The notes beneath the pieces were generated by a model. That model saw only the letters and a list, made by a program, of their open reading frames with translations, was not told the DNA's origin and made no database searches. A program made the translations under genes and the position numbers. DNA of 64,000 nt from an uncultured virus (IMG/VR IMGVR_UViG_3300042987_003191) (Duplodnaviria > Heunggongvirae > Uroviricota > Caudoviricetes), in the IMG/VR virus record IMGVR_UViG_3300042987_003191; one strand, 5' to 3'. Position 1 is the first letter of the stretch; the number at the start of each line of letters is the position of its first letter. Shown here piece by piece: positions 1,103 to 61,188 of the stretch.

Positions 1103-1111
1103 TGTTATGAT
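1103..1111 (+). promoter_or_regulatory. extended -10 promoter (TGtTATGAT)
   Basis: TGnTATGAT about 6 nt upstream of the structured segment starting near 1117. Confidence 0.55.
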
Positions 1112-1116
1112 TTCTA

Positions 1117-1290
1117 GGCATTCGGTCCTGGCGGCTTAATTGCTGCTCTCGTCTTCGGGCGAGCCGTGAGGGTGGACGCCTCTGATGGTGCGGGCAAAGC
1201 CGTATGGCTTAGCCAAGGAGTTATGCATGGTCTCCTGCGAGGCGCATCATCTTCCTTGTATCTTTAGGGAAAGGGGCATCGGAGGATGTG
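1117..1290 (+). ncRNA. candidate structured ncRNA, family unassigned
   Basis: Nested helices including a cUUCGg hairpin (1148-1163), 1184-1192/1243-1251 and 1178-1183/1272-1277; own promoter and terminator; no ORF. Confidence 0.6.
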
Positions 1291-1320
1291 AAGAGAAGGG
1301 GCTGTAAGGCCCCTTTTCTT
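1291..1320 (+). terminator. intrinsic terminator
   Basis: AAGGGGC...GCCCCTT stem followed by a T-rich tract. Confidence 0.7.
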
Positions 1321-2398: not shown

Positions 2399-2760
2399 GG
2401 CAGCAAGGGTTGAGGTTGTTCAAGCAGGGACGGCTGTGAGCCAGTGCCCTGCAGTTCTTCGCACCTGACCGAAACGGTCACCAATGCGCCAGGGTCAAAG
2501 TTGACCTGCGCCCAGGTGACGCAAAACATCCGACCCTGGGCAAAGAACTCGTGCCCGGCGAGACTCGGAATCATGTCTACCGCCGCGTCGGTGAGCGGCA
2601 CCAGCTCGGCCTCCATGCTGGTGCGGGTCGGGCGGCGCCATGAAGAACGCCACTCCAGCAGGTCGTTGTGATGCCAGATCGCGAGGTCCCGCAGCTTCCA
2701 GTCGGCTGGATCCAGCATTGGTCGCCGGGCCAGGTTGCTTGTGGGTGTGATGTCAGTCAT
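2395..2760 (-). CDS. hypothetical protein
   Basis: 121-aa ORF overlapping both neighbours; GC-rich codons. Confidence 0.55.
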   Translation of the reverse strand: MTDITPTSNLARRPMLDPADWKLRDLAIWHHNDLLEWRSSWRRPTRTSMEAELVPLTDAAVDMIPSLAGHEFFAQGRMFCVTWAQVNFDPGALVTVSVRCEELQGTGSQPSLLEQPQPLLP

Positions 2761-3109
2761 CGAGTTGATCCAGAGCGTGGCGGATGGCGGGCAATGCGTC
2801 AGAGGTAGTGATGCAGTCCCCCCTTAATATCGCGTCGTCTAACGCTGCCAGCGCCAACTCCTTCAAGCTCGGCGGCTTAGGGCGGCGGGCTGCGCGGAGT
2901 TGTTTAATCAGTAGCTCGGGATGGTCTAGCCACGGATACGCGGCAATCCACTCACAGCACACCTCCAGCTCGTGGTCTGCGCCCCATTGGGCGGCCATCG
3001 AGACAACATGCTCCTCTGCTTCTGGGATTGTGTACTGCCGGCGGTTGCTTTCTTCCCACCACTGCTGCACCAGCTCCGGCGGTGGGGTGATGGGATGTTG
3101 GTTAGTCAT
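2753..3109 (-). CDS. hypothetical cyanophage-type protein
   Basis: HPITPPPELVQQW...AAQWGAD.ELE.CCEW...LRAARRPKPPSLKE pattern. Confidence 0.7.
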   Translation of the reverse strand: MTNQHPITPPPELVQQWWEESNRRQYTIPEAEEHVVSMAAQWGADHELEVCCEWIAAYPWLDHPELLIKQLRAARRPKPPSLKELALAALDDAILRGDCITTSDALPAIRHALDQLDD

Positions 3110-56294: not shown

Positions 56295-56980
56295 CAAAAG
56301 ATCCTCGGCGCTTTTACGTTTACGCATTCTTAAGAGAAAAAGACTCGGCACGCGGCAAGCGCATGAGTCCTTATTACATTGGCAAAGGAGCACGAGATCG
56401 CGCCACTTCGAAATGTCGCACCATCCCAAGACCTAGCAATTCTTCGTTCATCGTTTTTGTGCAAGAAGGCTTAACTGAACAAGAGGCGTTTGATTTAGAA
56501 AAGTATTGCATTGCCCTCTATGGACGCATTGATAAAGGCACTGGTATTCTTCGCAATCTTGGTGATGGTGGCGATGGAGCATCTGGCGTAATTTACTCCC
56601 CTGAACGCAGGAAGCAAATATCAGAAGCAAATAAAGGGCGCGTTCACACAGAAGAGACAAAGCGCAAGATCGGAGAAAAGCAAAAAGGCGAAAAAAATCA
56701 CATGTGGAGAAAAGATGTATCCCAAGAAACCCGCGATAAGATTTCCCGAGCTAATAAAGGACTAAAGCGATCAGAAGAGGCTCGTCGCAATATCGCCCAA
56801 GGAAAGGTGAAGTACCTCTGCGAACTGGTTGATCCGCAAGGTAATGTACATAAAGTAGATAACTTGTGGGCCTTTGCTAATGAAAATAACTTGCACTACA
56901 CAATGCTAAGCTGGTTAGTTAAAGGCAAGAAGAAGCAGTATAAAAAGTGGATTTGCAAAAGTTGCATTGAGGTACGATGA
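56291..56980 (+). CDS. GIY-YIG-type homing endonuclease with NUMOD3 repeats
   Basis: FYVYA.LR....PYYIGKG...R...E...I..YGR...G.L.N..DGG.G; HTEETKRKI repeats. Confidence 0.88.
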   Translation: MTKDPRRFYVYAFLREKDSARGKRMSPYYIGKGARDRATSKCRTIPRPSNSSFIVFVQEGLTEQEAFDLEKYCIALYGRIDKGTGILRNLGDGGDGASGVIYSPERRKQISEANKGRVHTEETKRKIGEKQKGEKNHMWRKDVSQETRDKISRANKGLKRSEEARRNIAQGKVKYLCELVDPQGNVHKVDNLWAFANENNLHYTMLSWLVKGKKKQYKKWICKSCIEVR

Positions 56981-58350
56981 GTCAACTTAAATGTTCGGAT
57001 TTTGCGAAGCACGCGTTGGGCCTGGATCTCTATCCAATGCAGGCAAAAATACTGGATAAATTTTTTAGTCCTGGCATCTCCAATGCAATCTGGGCGCTCG
57101 GTAGACGTAGCGGCAAGACGCTCATGGCTGCGGTCGCCTGTGTTTATATGTGCTTTGTTCTTGAAGAAGACTACAGAAGAAAAGTGCGAAAAGGAGAAAA
57201 GTTTTATATCGTTGCAGTGGCCAACTCGCAAGATCAGGCTCGCATTGCGCTAAATAATATTCGCCAGCTCATTCTTGATAGCCCCTTTGCAAAAGAAATT
57301 GTCAGAGAAACAGCAGACATCATTGAAATCAGCAATGGATGCGTATTTAAAGCCGTCCCCACGTCTGGTCGCGCCGCCCGTGGCCTTGCTTGCGCGGGAG
57401 CCGTATTTGACGAGCTAGCCTTCGCTACTGAGGGCGACGCAAATAGCGGGGGCAGGGGTATTTATGACGCATTGTCACCTGCTATTGCCCAGTTTGGCGG
57501 GAAAGGTCGCATTCTCGAACTTTCATCGCCATGGTTAGGGCAAGGTCTTTTTTGGGAGCATTTCAAAGAGGCATCTTCAGGAAGATTTCCGTTTATGGCG
57601 GCAGAGAATCACCCTACATGGGTGATGAATCCAAATATTTCACAAGAATTCTTGGATACTGAAAGGCAGCGTGACCCAGACAAGTTCGCCGTTGAATATG
57701 GCGCTCAATTTGCCAACAATCTTTCAGCCCTTGTTGCAAGCGATGTTGTTGATGCCTGTATTGATGACCGCAGAGCGGCTCTACCACCCCGTCCTGAATT
57801 CCAAGGCGCCTATGTACTTGCCCTTGACCCCGCCCGTGGTGGCGTTGGCCGTGACGACTACACTGCTTGTATTGTTCACTATGAGAACGGCACGCTAGTC
57901 GTAGACAAATTCCACTCCTTCGTCGCTGATTTTGAAATCAATGGAAGAATGGAAGTGAATATTAATGCAGTGGAAGATTGGATTAAGGAACAGCATCGTC
58001 TGTACGTCTTCGACACCATCGTGATGGACCAGTTCAACAGTGCTGGCACCATTCAAAGCTTGGCGAGCGATTTGCCCATCACGGAACTCACCTGGACTGT
58101 CAGCTCCAAGATGAAAGCATTCAGCAAGATGCGGGAATTGTTTAATGCAGGGCAAATCAATGTATATCGTCACGAGAAAGCAATTATGCAGCTCAAGAAT
58201 CTCACTGTTATTTATAAACCCAGTGGACAATGGAGTGTAACTGGTGGCAAGGCTTCTGGAATTGACGACTTAGCGTTTGCAATGGCAGGCGCAATTCTTG
58301 CTGCTAGCAAAGATGATGACATTGGTTGGATCGAAAGCCTCATCTCCTAG
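56977..58350 (+). CDS. terL: terminase large subunit
   Basis: GRRSGKT Walker A, AVFDELAF Walker B, SSP coupling motif, ALDPA and DDLA nuclease aspartates. Confidence 0.92.
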   Translation: MSQLKCSDFAKHALGLDLYPMQAKILDKFFSPGISNAIWALGRRSGKTLMAAVACVYMCFVLEEDYRRKVRKGEKFYIVAVANSQDQARIALNNIRQLILDSPFAKEIVRETADIIEISNGCVFKAVPTSGRAARGLACAGAVFDELAFATEGDANSGGRGIYDALSPAIAQFGGKGRILELSSPWLGQGLFWEHFKEASSGRFPFMAAENHPTWVMNPNISQEFLDTERQRDPDKFAVEYGAQFANNLSALVASDVVDACIDDRRAALPPRPEFQGAYVLALDPARGGVGRDDYTACIVHYENGTLVVDKFHSFVADFEINGRMEVNINAVEDWIKEQHRLYVFDTIVMDQFNSAGTIQSLASDLPITELTWTVSSKMKAFSKMRELFNAGQINVYRHEKAIMQLKNLTVIYKPSGQWSVTGGKASGIDDLAFAMAGAILAASKDDDIGWIESLIS

Positions 58351-58384
58351 TATGATTTTCAAGCAATAGTCCTGCTATAACGCG

Positions 58385-58639
58385 ATGAACTGCAATTTAA
58401 CTATGCAAGAGACTCAGTTTCTCACTGCACTTCTTGGCAATGCTTCCATCAGCAAGCAAACATGCCTTCAACTCCTCGCAGCCGAACATCTATACATTCC
58501 CACGCTCTTTCCTAAGCTCCAGGCCCACGCCAAGGCCCTTAAGCAAGCTGAGGAGGAGGAAGAATATGAGAAGGCCACGCTTGACGACTACTGCCGTGAA
58601 TACCCTGGAGATCAATGCTGCAAAGAATACGACGTTTGA
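58385..58639 (+). CDS. protein with CP12-like C-terminal motif
   Basis: TLDDYCREYPGDQCCKEYDV resembles the CP12 C-x3-P-x4-C..YD tail; the AWD.VEEL core is absent. Confidence 0.55.
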   Translation: MNCNLTMQETQFLTALLGNASISKQTCLQLLAAEHLYIPTLFPKLQAHAKALKQAEEEEEYEKATLDDYCREYPGDQCCKEYDV

Positions 58640-58672
58640 AGCTTGGTGGGCGTTTCAAAACATGCTATGCTT

Positions 58673-58872
58673 CTGGAGCTTTCGCGAAGCACGCTGGCCA
58701 GCGTTAGTTCAAAAGGGGCAATGGTTTCAGGCGCCATTGTTTCAGAAAAGCGATGTTGCACATCGCGGCCCTGTGCAACAGGGCTCCCAGGGGAAGAGGG
58801 GAGCAGGCCCACCTGCTCTGAAATGCTGTACAAGGCGGATTGAAGCCCCGCCCAGCGCCCTCAACTTCCTCT
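58673..58872 (+). ncRNA. candidate structured ncRNA, family unassigned
   Basis: TGcTATGCT promoter at 58663-58671; at least seven hairpins in two closed domains; no credible ORF. Confidence 0.6.
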
Positions 58873-58897
58873 AGCCTCCCTTTTGTTACACTAATGG

Positions 58898-58950
58898 TAC
58901 GTTCACCCCGCAAGGGGCGCATGACTCGCTGGTACGGAACGGGACCAGCA
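58898..58950 (+). promoter_or_regulatory. glutamine-II riboswitch (Downstream-peptide RNA motif)
   Basis: CGTTCA-CCCC-gcaa-GGGG-CGCA...GGAACG with pseudoknot GCTGGT/ACCAGC; upstream TGtTACACT promoter. Confidence 0.85.
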
Positions 58951-58965
58951 TCATCGGGAACCATC

Positions 58966-59085
58966 ATGAACCCACTCGCCCTCATCAAGCAGCAGCTTGA
59001 GAAAGCAGCTCGTCTGCGCGAAGCACAGCATGCAAGCCTCGTTTATCGCGGCATTGCTTACGTGCCTAAGCCCCACTGGTTCTGA
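58966..59085 (+). CDS. DUF4278-like small protein (39 aa)
   Basis: LVYRGIAY motif directly downstream of the riboswitch. Confidence 0.8.
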   Translation: MNPLALIKQQLEKAARLREAQHASLVYRGIAYVPKPHWF

Positions 59086-59092
59086 GCTGATC

Positions 59093-59117
59093 AAAGGGAG
59101 CTTAAGCTCCCTTTTTT
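59093..59117. terminator. bidirectional terminator
   Basis: AAAGGGAGC-ttaa-GCTCCCTTTTTT. Confidence 0.7.
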
Positions 59118-59311
59118 AATGTCTGAACGCAACCAGATGGTTGCTTTTCCCAATGTCTAGCTGCATTGGCCACGATGGCAATATTGGTAATCAAATACGA
59201 TGCGAAAATCAACGTGCGAATGATCGCCACAGTATCAGCTTCATGGTCATGCTTGCTTGCCTTCTCCCCTAACGCCTTCGCCCACACTCTCCATACGTTC
59301 TTCCTGCTCAT
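59102..59311 (-). CDS. conserved small phage membrane protein
   Basis: WR.WAKALGEKA...D.EAD.VA.IRT.I...Y.ITN..IVA...RHW. Confidence 0.7.
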   Translation of the reverse strand: MSRKNVWRVWAKALGEKASKHDHEADTVAIIRTLIFASYLITNIAIVANAARHWEKQPSGCVQTLKKGA

Positions 59312-61115: not shown

Positions 61116-61188
61116 TGGCGGAGACAGGACTTGAACCTGCGACCTCCAGGGTATGAACCTGGCGAGCTACCAACTGCTCTACTCCACT
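61116..61188 (-). tRNA. tRNA-Met(CAU), initiator-like
   Basis: Full cloverleaf; anticodon CAT; 1:72 mismatch and A11:U24 initiator hallmarks; no encoded CCA. Confidence 0.9.

What the first reader, a model, noticed from the sequence alone, without database searches (positions are those of the whole stretch)
58663..58872. Second ~200-nt two-domain structured RNA, directly upstream of the glutamine riboswitch unit
Seen: after TGcTATGCT, domain 1 is closed by CTGG(58673-76)/CCAG(58787-90). It holds GCTT/AAGC, ACGCT/AGCGT, GGGCAATGGT/GCCATTGTTT, GCGATGT/ACATCGC and GCCCTGT/ACAGGGC hairpins. Domain 2 is closed by GGAAG/CTTCC and GAGGG/CCCTC and holds GAGCAGG/CCTGCTC and GCTG-GGCGG/CCGCC-CAGC. The overlapping ORFs look spurious. 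Inference: a discrete ncRNA similar in style to the one at 1117-1290, suggesting a set of phage structured RNAs. Known cyanophage motifs such as manA and wcaG need to be excluded.
Basis: partly seen in the sequence, partly recalled or inferred. Interest (0 to 1): 0.75.

Follow-up and report, generated by a model that had tools for sequence, protein, structure and literature searches.

The report
New structured RNA of cyanophages
This stretch encodes a conserved, intricately folded non-coding RNA of S-CBS4-like cyanobacterial viruses; it matches no catalogued RNA family, usually sits directly in front of a viral leucine tRNA gene, and its job is unknown.

Summary

- **Conservation:** it is present in 75 of 80 related viral contigs chosen by their terminase. 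The other 5 end before the site.
- **Structure:** on 76 distinct sequences, 96.7% of predicted pairs form, against 36-56% in slid controls. 26 of 40 pairs show changes on both sides.
- **Strand:** G·U pairs outnumber A·C pairs 297 to 41, which favours the + strand.
- **Known families:** no Rfam family matches, and no reading frame is kept open.
- **Architecture:** a 28-nt invariant twin hairpin (P1, P2), a variable hairpin (P3), and a three-way junction (P4, P5) with an invariant AUUGAAGCC loop.
the two middle hairpins are an insertion found in 6 of 75 sequences. The CTGG/CCAG closure is not conserved.
- **Context:** a conserved extended -10-like box precedes the RNA. In 59 of 75 relatives a tRNA-Leu(UAA) follows within a few bases, then the glutamine-II riboswitch and its peptide. 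The window has lost the tRNA.
- **Relatives:** phage S-CBS4 carries a divergent, also covarying, RNA at the same place.

Function is unknown. My best reading is a stable, trans-acting RNA released from an RNA-tRNA precursor.

The parts
58663..58671 (+). Extended -10-like promoter box TGCTATGCT. It ends 6 nt before P1, so the predicted transcript start is about 58676-58678.
   Evidence: TGnTAnnnT lies at this fixed distance in 52 of 53 distinct upstream flanks, with TATGAT in 28, TATGCT in 23 and TAATAT in 1. The simple promoter scan did not list it, because there is no good -35. Its promoter role is inferred.
58677..58873 (+). Whole structured RNA as matched by the family model. Relatives without the insertion are about 148-165 nt.
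   Evidence: Model R1 matches 58672-58873 at 136.3 bits, E 1e-39. It is the only full-length match in the 64-kb window.
58678..58690 (+). P1 hairpin GCUUUCGCGAAGC, with the self-complementary UCGCGA at its apex.
   Evidence: Invariant in the 75 distinct window-clade sequences. In the S-CBS4 clade the stem is GCAU/AUGC or GGUAU/AUACC around the same UUCGCGA.
58691..58704 (+). P2 hairpin ACGCU-GGCC-AGCGU, which is also a perfect 14-bp DNA palindrome.
   Evidence: Invariant except for one U.G in 75 sequences. It therefore gives no covariation for or against pairing.
58716..58742 (+). P3 variable hairpin with loop UUCAGGC.
   Evidence: The stem sequence is replaced wholesale between subgroups while pairing is kept. 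5 of 6 modelled pairs change on both sides. The S-CBS4 clade also has a UCAGG-type loop.
58750..58784 (+). Two extra hairpins (58750-58766 and 58768-58784). This is a lineage-specific insertion.
   Evidence: Present in 6 of 75 distinct sequences. Contigs of two RNA-library runs skip 58741-58790 and 58743-58787.
58790..58800 (+). 5' strand of the helix closing the three-way junction (GGGGAA + GAGGG).
   Evidence: Pairs with 58858-58871. All 3 outer pairs and 4 of the 5 inner pairs change on both sides (helices 4 and 5).
58801..58818 (+). P4 hairpin, 7 bp with loop CCCA (CCNA in the family).
   Evidence: 99.6% of cells paired. 6 of 7 pairs change on both sides, with up to 6 pair types (helix 6).
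58819..58824 (+). Conserved junction linker UGAAAU (UUAAAW in other subgroups).
   Evidence: Alignment A2.
58825..58856 (+). P5: GCUG/CAGC, an internal loop, GGCGG/CCGCC, and a 9-nt loop AUUGAAGCC (58839-58847).
   Evidence: Helices 7 and 8 are 100% and 98.7% paired, and 5 of 9 pairs change on both sides. The loop is invariant apart from isolated single-base changes.
58858..58871 (+). 3' strand of the closing helix (CCCUC, AAC, UUCCUC).
   Evidence: helices 4 and 5.
58874..58880 (+). GCCTCCC, a possible remnant of the 5' end of a deleted tRNA-Leu(UAA).
   Evidence: In 59 of 75 relatives a tRNA starts here. Some of those begin GCCTCCATGG. The remnant reading is inferred.
58884..58892 (+). Context: a second extended -10-like box, TGTTACACT, 6 nt before the riboswitch.
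   Evidence: Equivalent boxes (TGCTAAGCT, TGCTACACT) lie at the same spacing in relatives. Promoter role inferred.
58897..58949 (+). Context: glutamine-II riboswitch aptamer.
   Evidence: RF01704, 38.6 bits against a gathering score of 33.
58966..59085 (+). Context: 39-aa downstream-peptide ORF. A terminator-like hairpin follows at 59093-59114.
   Evidence: no Pfam family. About 80% DNA identity to S-CBS4 gp007.

Best explanation
This is a gene for a structured non-coding RNA that is not in Rfam and is specific to S-CBS4-like cyanosiphoviruses.

Shown:
- The + strand folds into a conserved architecture. It has two invariant 5' hairpins (P1, P2), a variable hairpin (P3), and a three-way junction (closing helix, P4, P5) with an invariant AUUGAAGCC loop.
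- The fold is maintained by compensatory changes across more than 100 viral contigs.

Inferred:
- The RNA is transcribed from its own extended -10 promoter (58663-58671).
- It is the first product of a cluster made of RNA, tRNA-Leu(UAA), glutamine-II riboswitch and small peptide.
- Where the tRNA is present, RNase P cutting at the tRNA 5' end would create the RNA's 3' end a few bases after the closing helix.
- The released, stable RNA acts in trans. It would present its invariant elements (the P1 UCGCGA apex, P2, the UCAGG-type P3 loop and the AUUGAAG loop) to a protein or RNA partner during infection.
- It is not merely a leader for the tRNA or the riboswitch.
For: **Conservation**
- The element is in 75 of the 80 terL-selected loci. 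The 5 without it end at most 327 nt after terL.
- The 23-mer of its 5' block occurs in at least 120 viral stretches. 117 of those hold the full element.

**Structure**
- RNAalifold predicts 34 pairs, 18 of them with compensatory changes.
- On the model-fitted alignment of 76 distinct sequences, 96.7% of cells pair against 36-56% when partners are slid. 26 of 40 pairs change on both sides, and 0 of 500 shuffles reach any measure.

**Strand**
- 297 G.U cells against 41 A.C cells, giving 96.6% paired on + and 88.1% on -.
- Single-sequence fold z is -3.04 on + and -1.33 on -.

**Not coding**
- The best of six frames is open in only 25 of 75 sequences.
- Lengths modulo 3 are spread 34/17/24.

**Promoter**
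- TGnTAnnnT sits at a fixed distance in 52 of 53 distinct flanks, and its inner bases vary.

**tRNA linkage and independence from it**
- ARAGORN finds tRNA-Leu(UAA) within a few bases in 59 of 75 sequences.
- The RNA is fully retained in the 16 without a tRNA, including the window.

**A divergent counterpart in the S-CBS4 clade**
- It occupies the same position. On 14 sequences it is 89.8% paired against 42-57% slid, 27 of 50 pairs change on both sides, and 0 of 500 shuffles reach four of the five measures (2 of 500 for the fifth).
- The models cross-detect weakly at the right place. R1 finds 13 of 32 S-CBS4-clade loci at 13-21 bits. R2 finds 4 of 5 window-clade sources at 14-19 bits.

**Presence in RNA libraries**
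- Contigs of three runs from three studies, 95-99% alike, cover the element and run on into the tRNA.
Against: - No transcript ends are known. The runs were available only as contigs, so presence in RNA libraries does not prove transcription. One contig starts 33 nt upstream of the predicted start.
- The promoter is a consensus resemblance, and the simple scan did not call it.
- No terminator lies between the RNA and the riboswitch unit. In the window, which lacks the tRNA, nothing obvious defines a 3' end.
- P1 and P2 never vary within the window clade, so their pairing is untested there. P2 is a perfect DNA palindrome, which would also suit a DNA-binding protein.
- Action in trans and the nature of any partner are pure inference. 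No neighbouring gene suggests an RNA-binding protein.
- Cross-clade model scores of 13-21 bits are no higher than an unrelated sequence earns from a short identical block (15.7-18.2 bits). Homology between the two clades therefore rests on position and shared motifs.
Confidence: 0.55

Rival explanations
1. It is a cis-acting leader (5' external transcribed spacer). The folded RNA exists to control or assist expression, processing or stability of what follows on the same transcript, meaning the tRNA and/or the glutamine-II riboswitch-peptide unit. It has no life of its own.
For: - It is always directly upstream and on the same strand.
- The tRNA starts within a few bases in 59 of 75 sequences.
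- No terminator-like site lies between them.
- Contigs from RNA libraries join the element to the tRNA. One joins its 3' part, about 110 other letters, the riboswitch and the peptide ORF.
- The order RNA, then tRNA (where present), then riboswitch is kept across both phage clades.
Against: - The RNA is kept intact in 16 of 75 sequences that lack the tRNA.
- There is no expression platform. The closing helix abuts the tRNA.
- The riboswitch has its own -10-like box at a conserved spacing.
- A 28-nt invariant block and invariant loops are more constraint than a processing spacer normally shows (inference).
Confidence: 0.2
2. It is a DNA-level signal. The invariant palindromes (TTCGCGAA and ACGCTGGCCAGCGT) next to the terminase genes would be an operator for a dimeric regulator, or part of a packaging or replication site. 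The RNA fold would be incidental.
For: - P2 is a perfect 14-bp palindrome, and the 28-nt block is invariant while terL differs by 3-11% at protein level.
- It lies about 330 nt after terL.
- Inverted-repeat arms that change symmetrically are also expected for an operator that co-evolves with its dimeric binding protein.
Against: - The bulk of the element is not palindromic DNA. It is a nested multi-helix fold with 26 of 40 pairs changed on both sides.
- G.U exceeds A.C by 297 to 41, which a duplex DNA site would not produce.
- A promoter-like box precedes it.
- Relatives occur in contigs of RNA libraries.

This reading could hold for the 5' block only, as a second role.
Confidence: 0.07
3. It is protein-coding. 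One of the overlapping ORFs would be a real small gene: 58643..58843 +, 58434..58874 +, 58612..58833 - or 58704..58988 -.
For: ORFs of 66-146 aa overlap the region in the window.
Against: - No frame is open in more than 25 of 75 relatives, and 23 of 75 have stops in all six frames.
- Element lengths differ by non-multiples of three.
- P3 is replaced by unrelated sequence that keeps pairing.
Confidence: 0.01

Closest known systems
[quoted passage not shown]
   Same: They are phage-encoded small RNAs made from the same region as phage tRNAs, and their biological role is unknown (PMC3014915, passage read). That they are matured from tRNA precursors is my recollection.
   Different: The phage group and host differ. 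I did not compare the sequences. Here a single RNA precedes a single tRNA, and it persists where that tRNA is lost.
GOLLD and ROOL RNAs, large ornate phage and prophage RNAs near tRNA islands
   Same: They are encoded by phages, often beside tRNA genes, have elaborate covarying structures, and have no known function or protein partner. Kissing loops build their RNA-only assemblies (bioRxiv 10.1101/2024.12.08.627333, passages read).
   Different: Those RNAs are far larger: many GOLLD RNAs exceed 800 nt, and about 580 nt for ROOL is my recollection. This RNA is about 150-200 nt. It does not match their Rfam models. Its oligomeric state is unknown.
Glutamine-II riboswitch (Downstream-peptide motif, RF01704), its immediate neighbour
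   Same: It is a cyanobacterial/cyanophage structured RNA in the same cluster and on the same strand.
   Different: It is a separate element at 58897-58949, with its own model match and its own -10-like box. The RNA studied here shares no model match with it. In most relatives a tRNA separates the two.
The unannotated RNA at the same locus of the isolate Synechococcus phage S-CBS4 (L001 2746 to about 2929)
   Same: It occupies the same position after terL and two small ORFs. It has the same -10 spacing, a P1 hairpin around UUCGCGA and a UCAGG-type hairpin loop. Some clade members have an AUUGAAG-type loop. A closing three-way junction is followed by a tRNA and then the glutamine-II riboswitch.
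   Different: P2 is different (GGGACGCC apex). There is an extra middle domain, and the 3' junction is different (CCGCA and UAAUGC loops). The tRNA is Thr(UGU). Cross-model scores are only 13-21 bits.

Membership tests
Any Rfam 15 family (manA, wcaG and the PhotoRC motifs are in Rfam by my recollection) | Covariance-model score at or above the family's gathering score | tested here: not met
   The whole-window scan found only a tRNA (61116-61188, - strand) and Glutamine-II (58897-58949). The permissive scan of 58350-59150 up to E = 10 gave nothing on the + strand of the element. The - strand gave HOXB13-AS1_1 (15.8 bits against 60), leuA-Halobacteria (13 against 47.9) and Six3os1_5 (7.7 against 50).
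tRNA, tmRNA or tRNA-like gene | Cloverleaf, or a tRNA-like domain recognised by ARAGORN or the Rfam tRNA/tmRNA models | tested here: not met
   ARAGORN finds one tRNA in the window, at 61116-61188. No tRNA or tmRNA match overlaps 58663-58872, even at E up to 10.
GOLLD / ROOL class of tRNA-island phage RNAs | Match to the GOLLD or ROOL model | tested here: not met
GOLLD / ROOL class of tRNA-island phage RNAs | Encoded by phages next to tRNA genes | tested here: met
   A tRNA-Leu(UAA) follows within a few bases in 59 of 75 distinct relatives. The window itself lacks it.
GOLLD / ROOL class of tRNA-island phage RNAs | RNA-only multimer held together by kissing loops | not testable with these tools
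   The only hint is that the invariant apical sequences UCGCGA (P1) and GGCC (P2) are self-complementary.
phi29-type packaging RNA (pRNA) | Match to the pRNA model, and a phage whose packaging motor lacks a conventional large terminase | tested here: not met
   No Rfam match. The phage has a conventional TerL, 75.5% identical to S-CBS4 terL, with a weak Terminase_6N hit. That pRNA is held in Rfam is my recollection.
T4 RNAC/RNAD-type RNAs of a phage tRNA transcription unit | Co-transcribed with the phage tRNA and released by tRNA processing | tested here: inconclusive
   The RNA abuts the tRNA without a terminator. Contigs of RNA libraries bridge the element and the tRNA. Contigs cannot show a single transcript or its ends.
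T4 RNAC/RNAD-type RNAs of a phage tRNA transcription unit | Sequence or structure homology to RNAC or RNAD | not tested
   No T4 sequence was fetched.
Protein-coding gene | A reading frame kept open across relatives, with indels in multiples of three | tested here: not met
   At most 25 of 75 open in any one frame. Lengths modulo 3 are 34/17/24.
The S-CBS4-like phage locus RNA defined here (models R1 and R2) | Position after terL and small ORFs; -10-like box 5-6 nt before P1; P1 around UUCGCGA; G-rich P3 loop; 3' multi-helix junction; then tRNA and/or the glutamine-II riboswitch | tested here: met
   R1 gives 136.3 bits in the window and 131-162 bits in 74 further distinct relatives.

The most novel reading that the evidence does not exclude
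The RNA is a miniature counterpart of the large tRNA-island RNAs of phages (GOLLD, ROOL). At about 160 nt it would self-associate through its invariant self-complementary apical sequences (UCGCGA on the covarying P1 stem, GGCC on P2). A contact between the 5' GCUUU/UUCG and the invariant AUUGAAGC loop might contribute. The assembled RNA would act on tRNA or the translation machinery during infection, for example by handling or shielding the fast-evolving phage tRNA-Leu(UAA) that it is made with.
Probability: 0.1. Interest if true: 0.8.

Novelty: new variant of a known kind. Interest (0 to 1): 0.55.

Why it matters
Phages carry structured RNAs next to their tRNA genes whose purpose has stayed unknown for decades (T4 RNAC/RNAD, GOLLD, ROOL). 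This RNA is short, about 150-200 nt, and has unusually clean covariation.

It is abundant in viral metagenome contigs. A cultured relative, S-CBS4 on Synechococcus CB0101, carries a divergent version, so the locus is experimentally tractable.

Several features give concrete handles for finding a partner:
- a 28-nt invariant block and palindromic apical loops;
- natural variants with and without the tRNA;
- natural variants with and without a 43-48-nt insertion.

It also corrects annotation. The overlapping ORFs here are spurious. In the S-CBS4 reference record this RNA, the tRNA-Thr and the riboswitch are not among the 12 listed features, which are all CDS.

Tried and rejected
- **Exact 24-mer of P3 in viral contigs:** 0 hits. 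P3 is too variable to serve as a probe.
- **blastn against isolated phages:** only the riboswitch and peptide part matches S-CBS4, and nothing matches the element.
- **Own genome:** none is held for this window.
- **Cellular genomes:** the 26-mer of the 5' block gave 0 hits. The 19-mer of P5 gave 6 hits in unrelated taxa, and model R1 matched only the 19-mer itself there. I read these as chance.
- **Two of the 120 23-mer hits (L129, L133):** these are unrelated GC-rich coding sequence.
- **RNA-seq:**
  - Only assembled contigs were available, so no starts, ends, strand or expression level could be read.
  - Parts of the 751-nt stretch without cover say nothing.
- **Extra pseudoknots:** a column-pair scan of A3 found no run of covarying non-nested pairs. 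The GCUUU/GAAGC alternative pairing involves only invariant bases and cannot be tested by covariation.
- **Relation to the candidate at 1117-1290:** neither R1 nor R2 matches it.
- **Earlier notes of this scan:** nothing was on record by place, by sequence or by words.
- **PMC10690425 (10,006 candidate structured RNAs of viruses, many from IMG/VR):**
  - I searched passages of the main text, the readable supplements, and mmc7 for the motif and six contig ids. There were no occurrences.
  - The alignment archives (mmc4 and mmc5) could not be read. I therefore cannot exclude that this motif is one of their unnamed candidates.
- **'S-CBS4' search:** 19 papers hold the term and 15 were listed. None of the 15 concerns an RNA gene, judged by title and abstract only. 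One search was a badly framed query and gave nothing useful.
- **Not used:** Complex prediction, structure prediction and the protein homology searches, since no protein claim is made.

Full report
**Setting.** The window comes from an uncultured relative of Synechococcus siphovirus S-CBS4.
- The ORF at 56977..58350 is a large terminase, 75.5% identical to S-CBS4 terL. S-CBS4 is the only isolate with a close match. Pfam gives only a weak Terminase_6N hit.
- After terL comes an 84-aa ORF with no Pfam family (58385..58639). The element under study follows.
- Next is a glutamine-II riboswitch (RF01704, 58897-58949, 38.6 bits), then a 39-aa peptide ORF (58966..59085).
- A terminator-like hairpin lies at 59093-59114. 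Beyond it the genes run on the opposite strand, including a metallophosphoesterase.

**The observation.**
- The + strand of 58640-58896 folds to -106 kcal/mol, z = -3.04, and 0 of 200 shuffles do as well.
- The - strand gives z = -1.33, with 21 of 200 shuffles as good.

**Conservation.**
- A search of viral contigs with the terminase found 153 relatives. The best 80 were fetched, with terL 89-97% identical.
- The element's 5' block is present in 75 of these 80 loci. The 5 without it end at most 327 nt after terL, before the element would begin.
Of these, 117 hold the full element, 1 is cut by a contig end, and 2 are unrelated GC-rich coding sequence.
- One-per-species bacterial and archaeal genomes hold no copy of the 26-mer. 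They hold 6 copies of the P5 19-mer, in unrelated taxa, and the family model matched nothing there beyond the 19-mer. The RNA therefore looks phage-specific.

**Structure.**
- I collected 75 distinct sequences, 148-205 nt long, and aligned them.
- RNAalifold predicts 34 pairs, 18 of them with compensatory changes.
- I built covariance model R1 (159 positions, 40 pairs) and realigned the sequences to it. The S-CBS4 match was the 76th row.
- On that alignment 96.7% of cells form standard pairs, against 36-56% when partners are slid by 1-3 columns. 26 of 40 pairs change on both sides, and none of 500 shuffles reaches any of the five measures. The alignment is fitted to the model, which favours it somewhat. 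The plain MAFFT alignment already showed the same helices.
- The conserved architecture has three parts.
  1. P1 (58678-58690) and P2 (58691-58704) form an abutting pair of hairpins, a 28-nt block that is invariant in the clade.
  2. P3 (58716-58742) is a hairpin whose stem sequence is replaced wholesale between subgroups. Its loop is UUCAGGC, GCAGG or GGGG(G).
  3. A three-way junction is made of a closing helix (58790-58800 with 58858-58871), P4 (58801-18, loop CCNA), a conserved linker, and P5 (58825-56). The 9-nt P5 loop AUUGAAGCC is invariant apart from isolated single-base changes.
- G.U cells outnumber A.C cells 297 to 41. The same pairs would be 96.6% formed on the + strand and 88.1% on the - strand. 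This points to a + strand RNA.

- The CTGG/CCAG helix said to close 'domain 1' pairs in only 20-37 of 75 sequences per position. It also lies at the probable transcript start.
- The two hairpins at 58750-58766 and 58768-58784 occur in 6 of 75 distinct sequences and hardly vary. They are a lineage-specific insertion.
- Contigs in two RNA-library runs carry the short form, skipping 58741-58790 and 58743-58787.

**Not coding, not a known family.**
- No frame is open in more than 25 of 75 sequences, and 23 of 75 have stops in all six frames. Lengths modulo 3 are 34/17/24.
- Rfam 15 gives no match at gathering thresholds.
- Up to E = 10 it gives nothing on the + strand of the element. The only overlaps there are three far-sub-threshold matches on the - strand.
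- ARAGORN sees no tRNA or tmRNA here.

**Transcription unit (inferred).**
- An extended -10-like box, TGnTAnnnT, ends 6 nt before P1 in 52 of 53 distinct upstream flanks. Its inner bases vary: TATGAT in 28, TATGCT in 23, TAATAT in 1.
- In 59 of 75 distinct sequences ARAGORN finds a tRNA-Leu(UAA) that starts within a few bases of the closing helix. A second -10-like box and the riboswitch follow.
- In the other 16, including the window, there is no tRNA call and the riboswitch-like motif follows about 30-45 nt later in 15 of them. The window keeps GCCTCCC (58874-80), which resembles the first bases of one tRNA type.
- Retention of the full RNA without the tRNA argues that it is more than a tRNA leader.

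**Expression evidence is weak.**
- Three RNA-library runs from three studies, plus one run that is probably DNA, hold contigs 95-99% alike. These cover the element and continue into the tRNA.
- Contigs cannot show starts, ends or strand. One contig begins 33 nt upstream of the predicted start.

**A wider family.**
- S-CBS4 itself has 349 nt between gp008 and a tRNA-Thr(UGU). Neither that tRNA nor the riboswitch is among the 12 listed features of the record.
- R1 matches there weakly (19.8 bits). It also matches 13 of 32 S-CBS4-clade loci at 13-21 bits, always at the equivalent place.
- The S-CBS4-clade RNAs start the same way: a -10 box (TATAGT or TATACT), then 5-6 nt, then P1 around the same UUCGCGA. 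The stem differs: GCAU/AUGC or GGUAU/AUACC, against GCUU/AAGC in the window clade.
- They have a hairpin with a UCAGG-type loop. Some have a hairpin with an AUUGAAG loop. They end in a different three-way junction.
- On a plain alignment of 14 sequences their structure is 89.8% paired against 42-57% slid. 27 of 50 pairs change on both sides, with 0 of 500 shuffles on four of the five measures and 2 of 500 on the fifth.
- Model R2 built from them finds the other S-CBS4 subclades at 29-46 bits. It finds the window clade weakly at the correct place in 4 of 5 sources: L011 19.3, L078 16.9, L035 16.5, window 58675-58820 14.0 bits with E 0.012, and L055 not found.
- A caution applies. An unrelated sequence with a short identical block also scores 16-18 bits with R1. 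Common ancestry of the two types therefore rests on position and shared motifs, not on score.

**How it probably works.**
- What is shown is a conserved, covarying + strand fold with invariant loops, fixed next to a promoter-like box and, usually, a tRNA.
- I infer a stable RNA transcribed from its own promoter. RNase P cutting at the tRNA would free it from a precursor, and it would act in trans through its invariant elements.
- The cis-leader reading keeps a real share, about 0.2. Adjacency is absolute and no terminator intervenes.
- A DNA-level role, such as an operator, is possible for the 28-nt palindromic block only.
- Two unexplained features are worth testing.
  - The apical sequences of P1 (UCGCGA) and P2 (GGCC) are self-complementary, and that of P1 stays invariant on a covarying stem.
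  - The 5' strand of P1 (GCUUU) can also pair with the GAAGC of the invariant P5 loop. RNAalifold pairs the equivalent 5' GCAUUCGCG with a distal invariant CGAUGAAGC in the S-CBS4 clade.

**Comparison and novelty.**
- The nearest known things are phage RNAs made beside tRNAs whose function is unknown.
  - T4 RNAC and RNAD (PMC3014915, passage).
  - The much larger GOLLD and ROOL RNAs, which form RNA-only cages held by kissing loops (bioRxiv 10.1101/2024.12.08.627333, passages).
- This RNA matches none of their models and is far smaller.
- I found no description of it in print. Of the 19 papers that mention S-CBS4, 15 were listed, and none concerns an RNA gene by title and abstract.
- The large catalogue of viral candidate RNAs (PMC10690425) did not contain the motif or six of the contig ids in the files I could read. 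Its alignment archives were unreadable, so prior listing as an unnamed candidate cannot be excluded.
- I rate it a new family within a known kind: phage structured RNAs of unknown function next to tRNA genes.

Noticed in passing
Relatives L002-L199, directly after the element; absent from the window (58874-58883): The tRNA after the RNA always has anticodon UAA (59 of 59), but its body is very diverse. There are 43 distinct sequences in about 17 clusters at 85% identity. 39 are short (74-78 nt, no long variable arm, unusual for a Leu tRNA) and 20 are long (82-90 nt). Most begin GCCC or GCCT and end in a matching 3' strand. The cause, rapid evolution or repeated replacement, is unexplained.
   Followed up: partly
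window 1103-1320: The other candidate RNA (1117-1290) is preceded by TGTTATGAT. That is the same extended -10-like box found before many relatives of the RNA studied here. It ends in a terminator-like hairpin at about 1296-1320. TGYTATGMTT occurs only twice in the 64-kb window, once before each candidate, but 26 of 100 shuffles also gave two or more matches. Models R1 and R2 do not match it.
   Followed up: partly
L001 (S-CBS4, NC_016766) 2581-3086: In the reference record of the isolate S-CBS4, the 12 listed features of this stretch are all CDS. The tRNA-Thr(UGU) at locus 2930-3001, the glutamine-II riboswitch at 3016-3072 and the structured RNA upstream are not among them.
   Followed up: yes
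window 58884-58892, and relatives: The glutamine-II riboswitch has its own TGnTAnnnT box 6-7 nt before its first conserved base (TGTTACACT here; TGCTAAGCT or TGCTACACT in relatives). The riboswitch-peptide unit can therefore probably be transcribed independently of the RNA-tRNA unit. The count was not quantified.
   Followed up: partly
window 58678-58682 and 58843-58847: The pentamer GAAGC in the invariant P5 loop repeats the 3' strand of P1, so the 5' GCUUU has two mutually exclusive partners. All the bases are invariant, so covariation cannot decide. In the S-CBS4 clade RNAalifold prefers a long-range pairing of 5' GCAUUCGCG with the distal CGAUGAAGC.
   Followed up: partly
L129 and L133 (viral contigs): An exact 23-base match to the invariant block lies inside an unrelated GC-rich coding region of another phage type. 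It scores 18.2 bits with model R1. This is a useful reminder of how little a 13-21 bit hit means on its own.
   Followed up: yes
window 58385-58639: The 84-aa ORF between terL and the RNA has no Pfam family. S-CBS4 has an annotated 80-aa hypothetical protein (gp008) at the same place, and the end of the ORF aligns across relatives. It was not investigated further.
   Followed up: no
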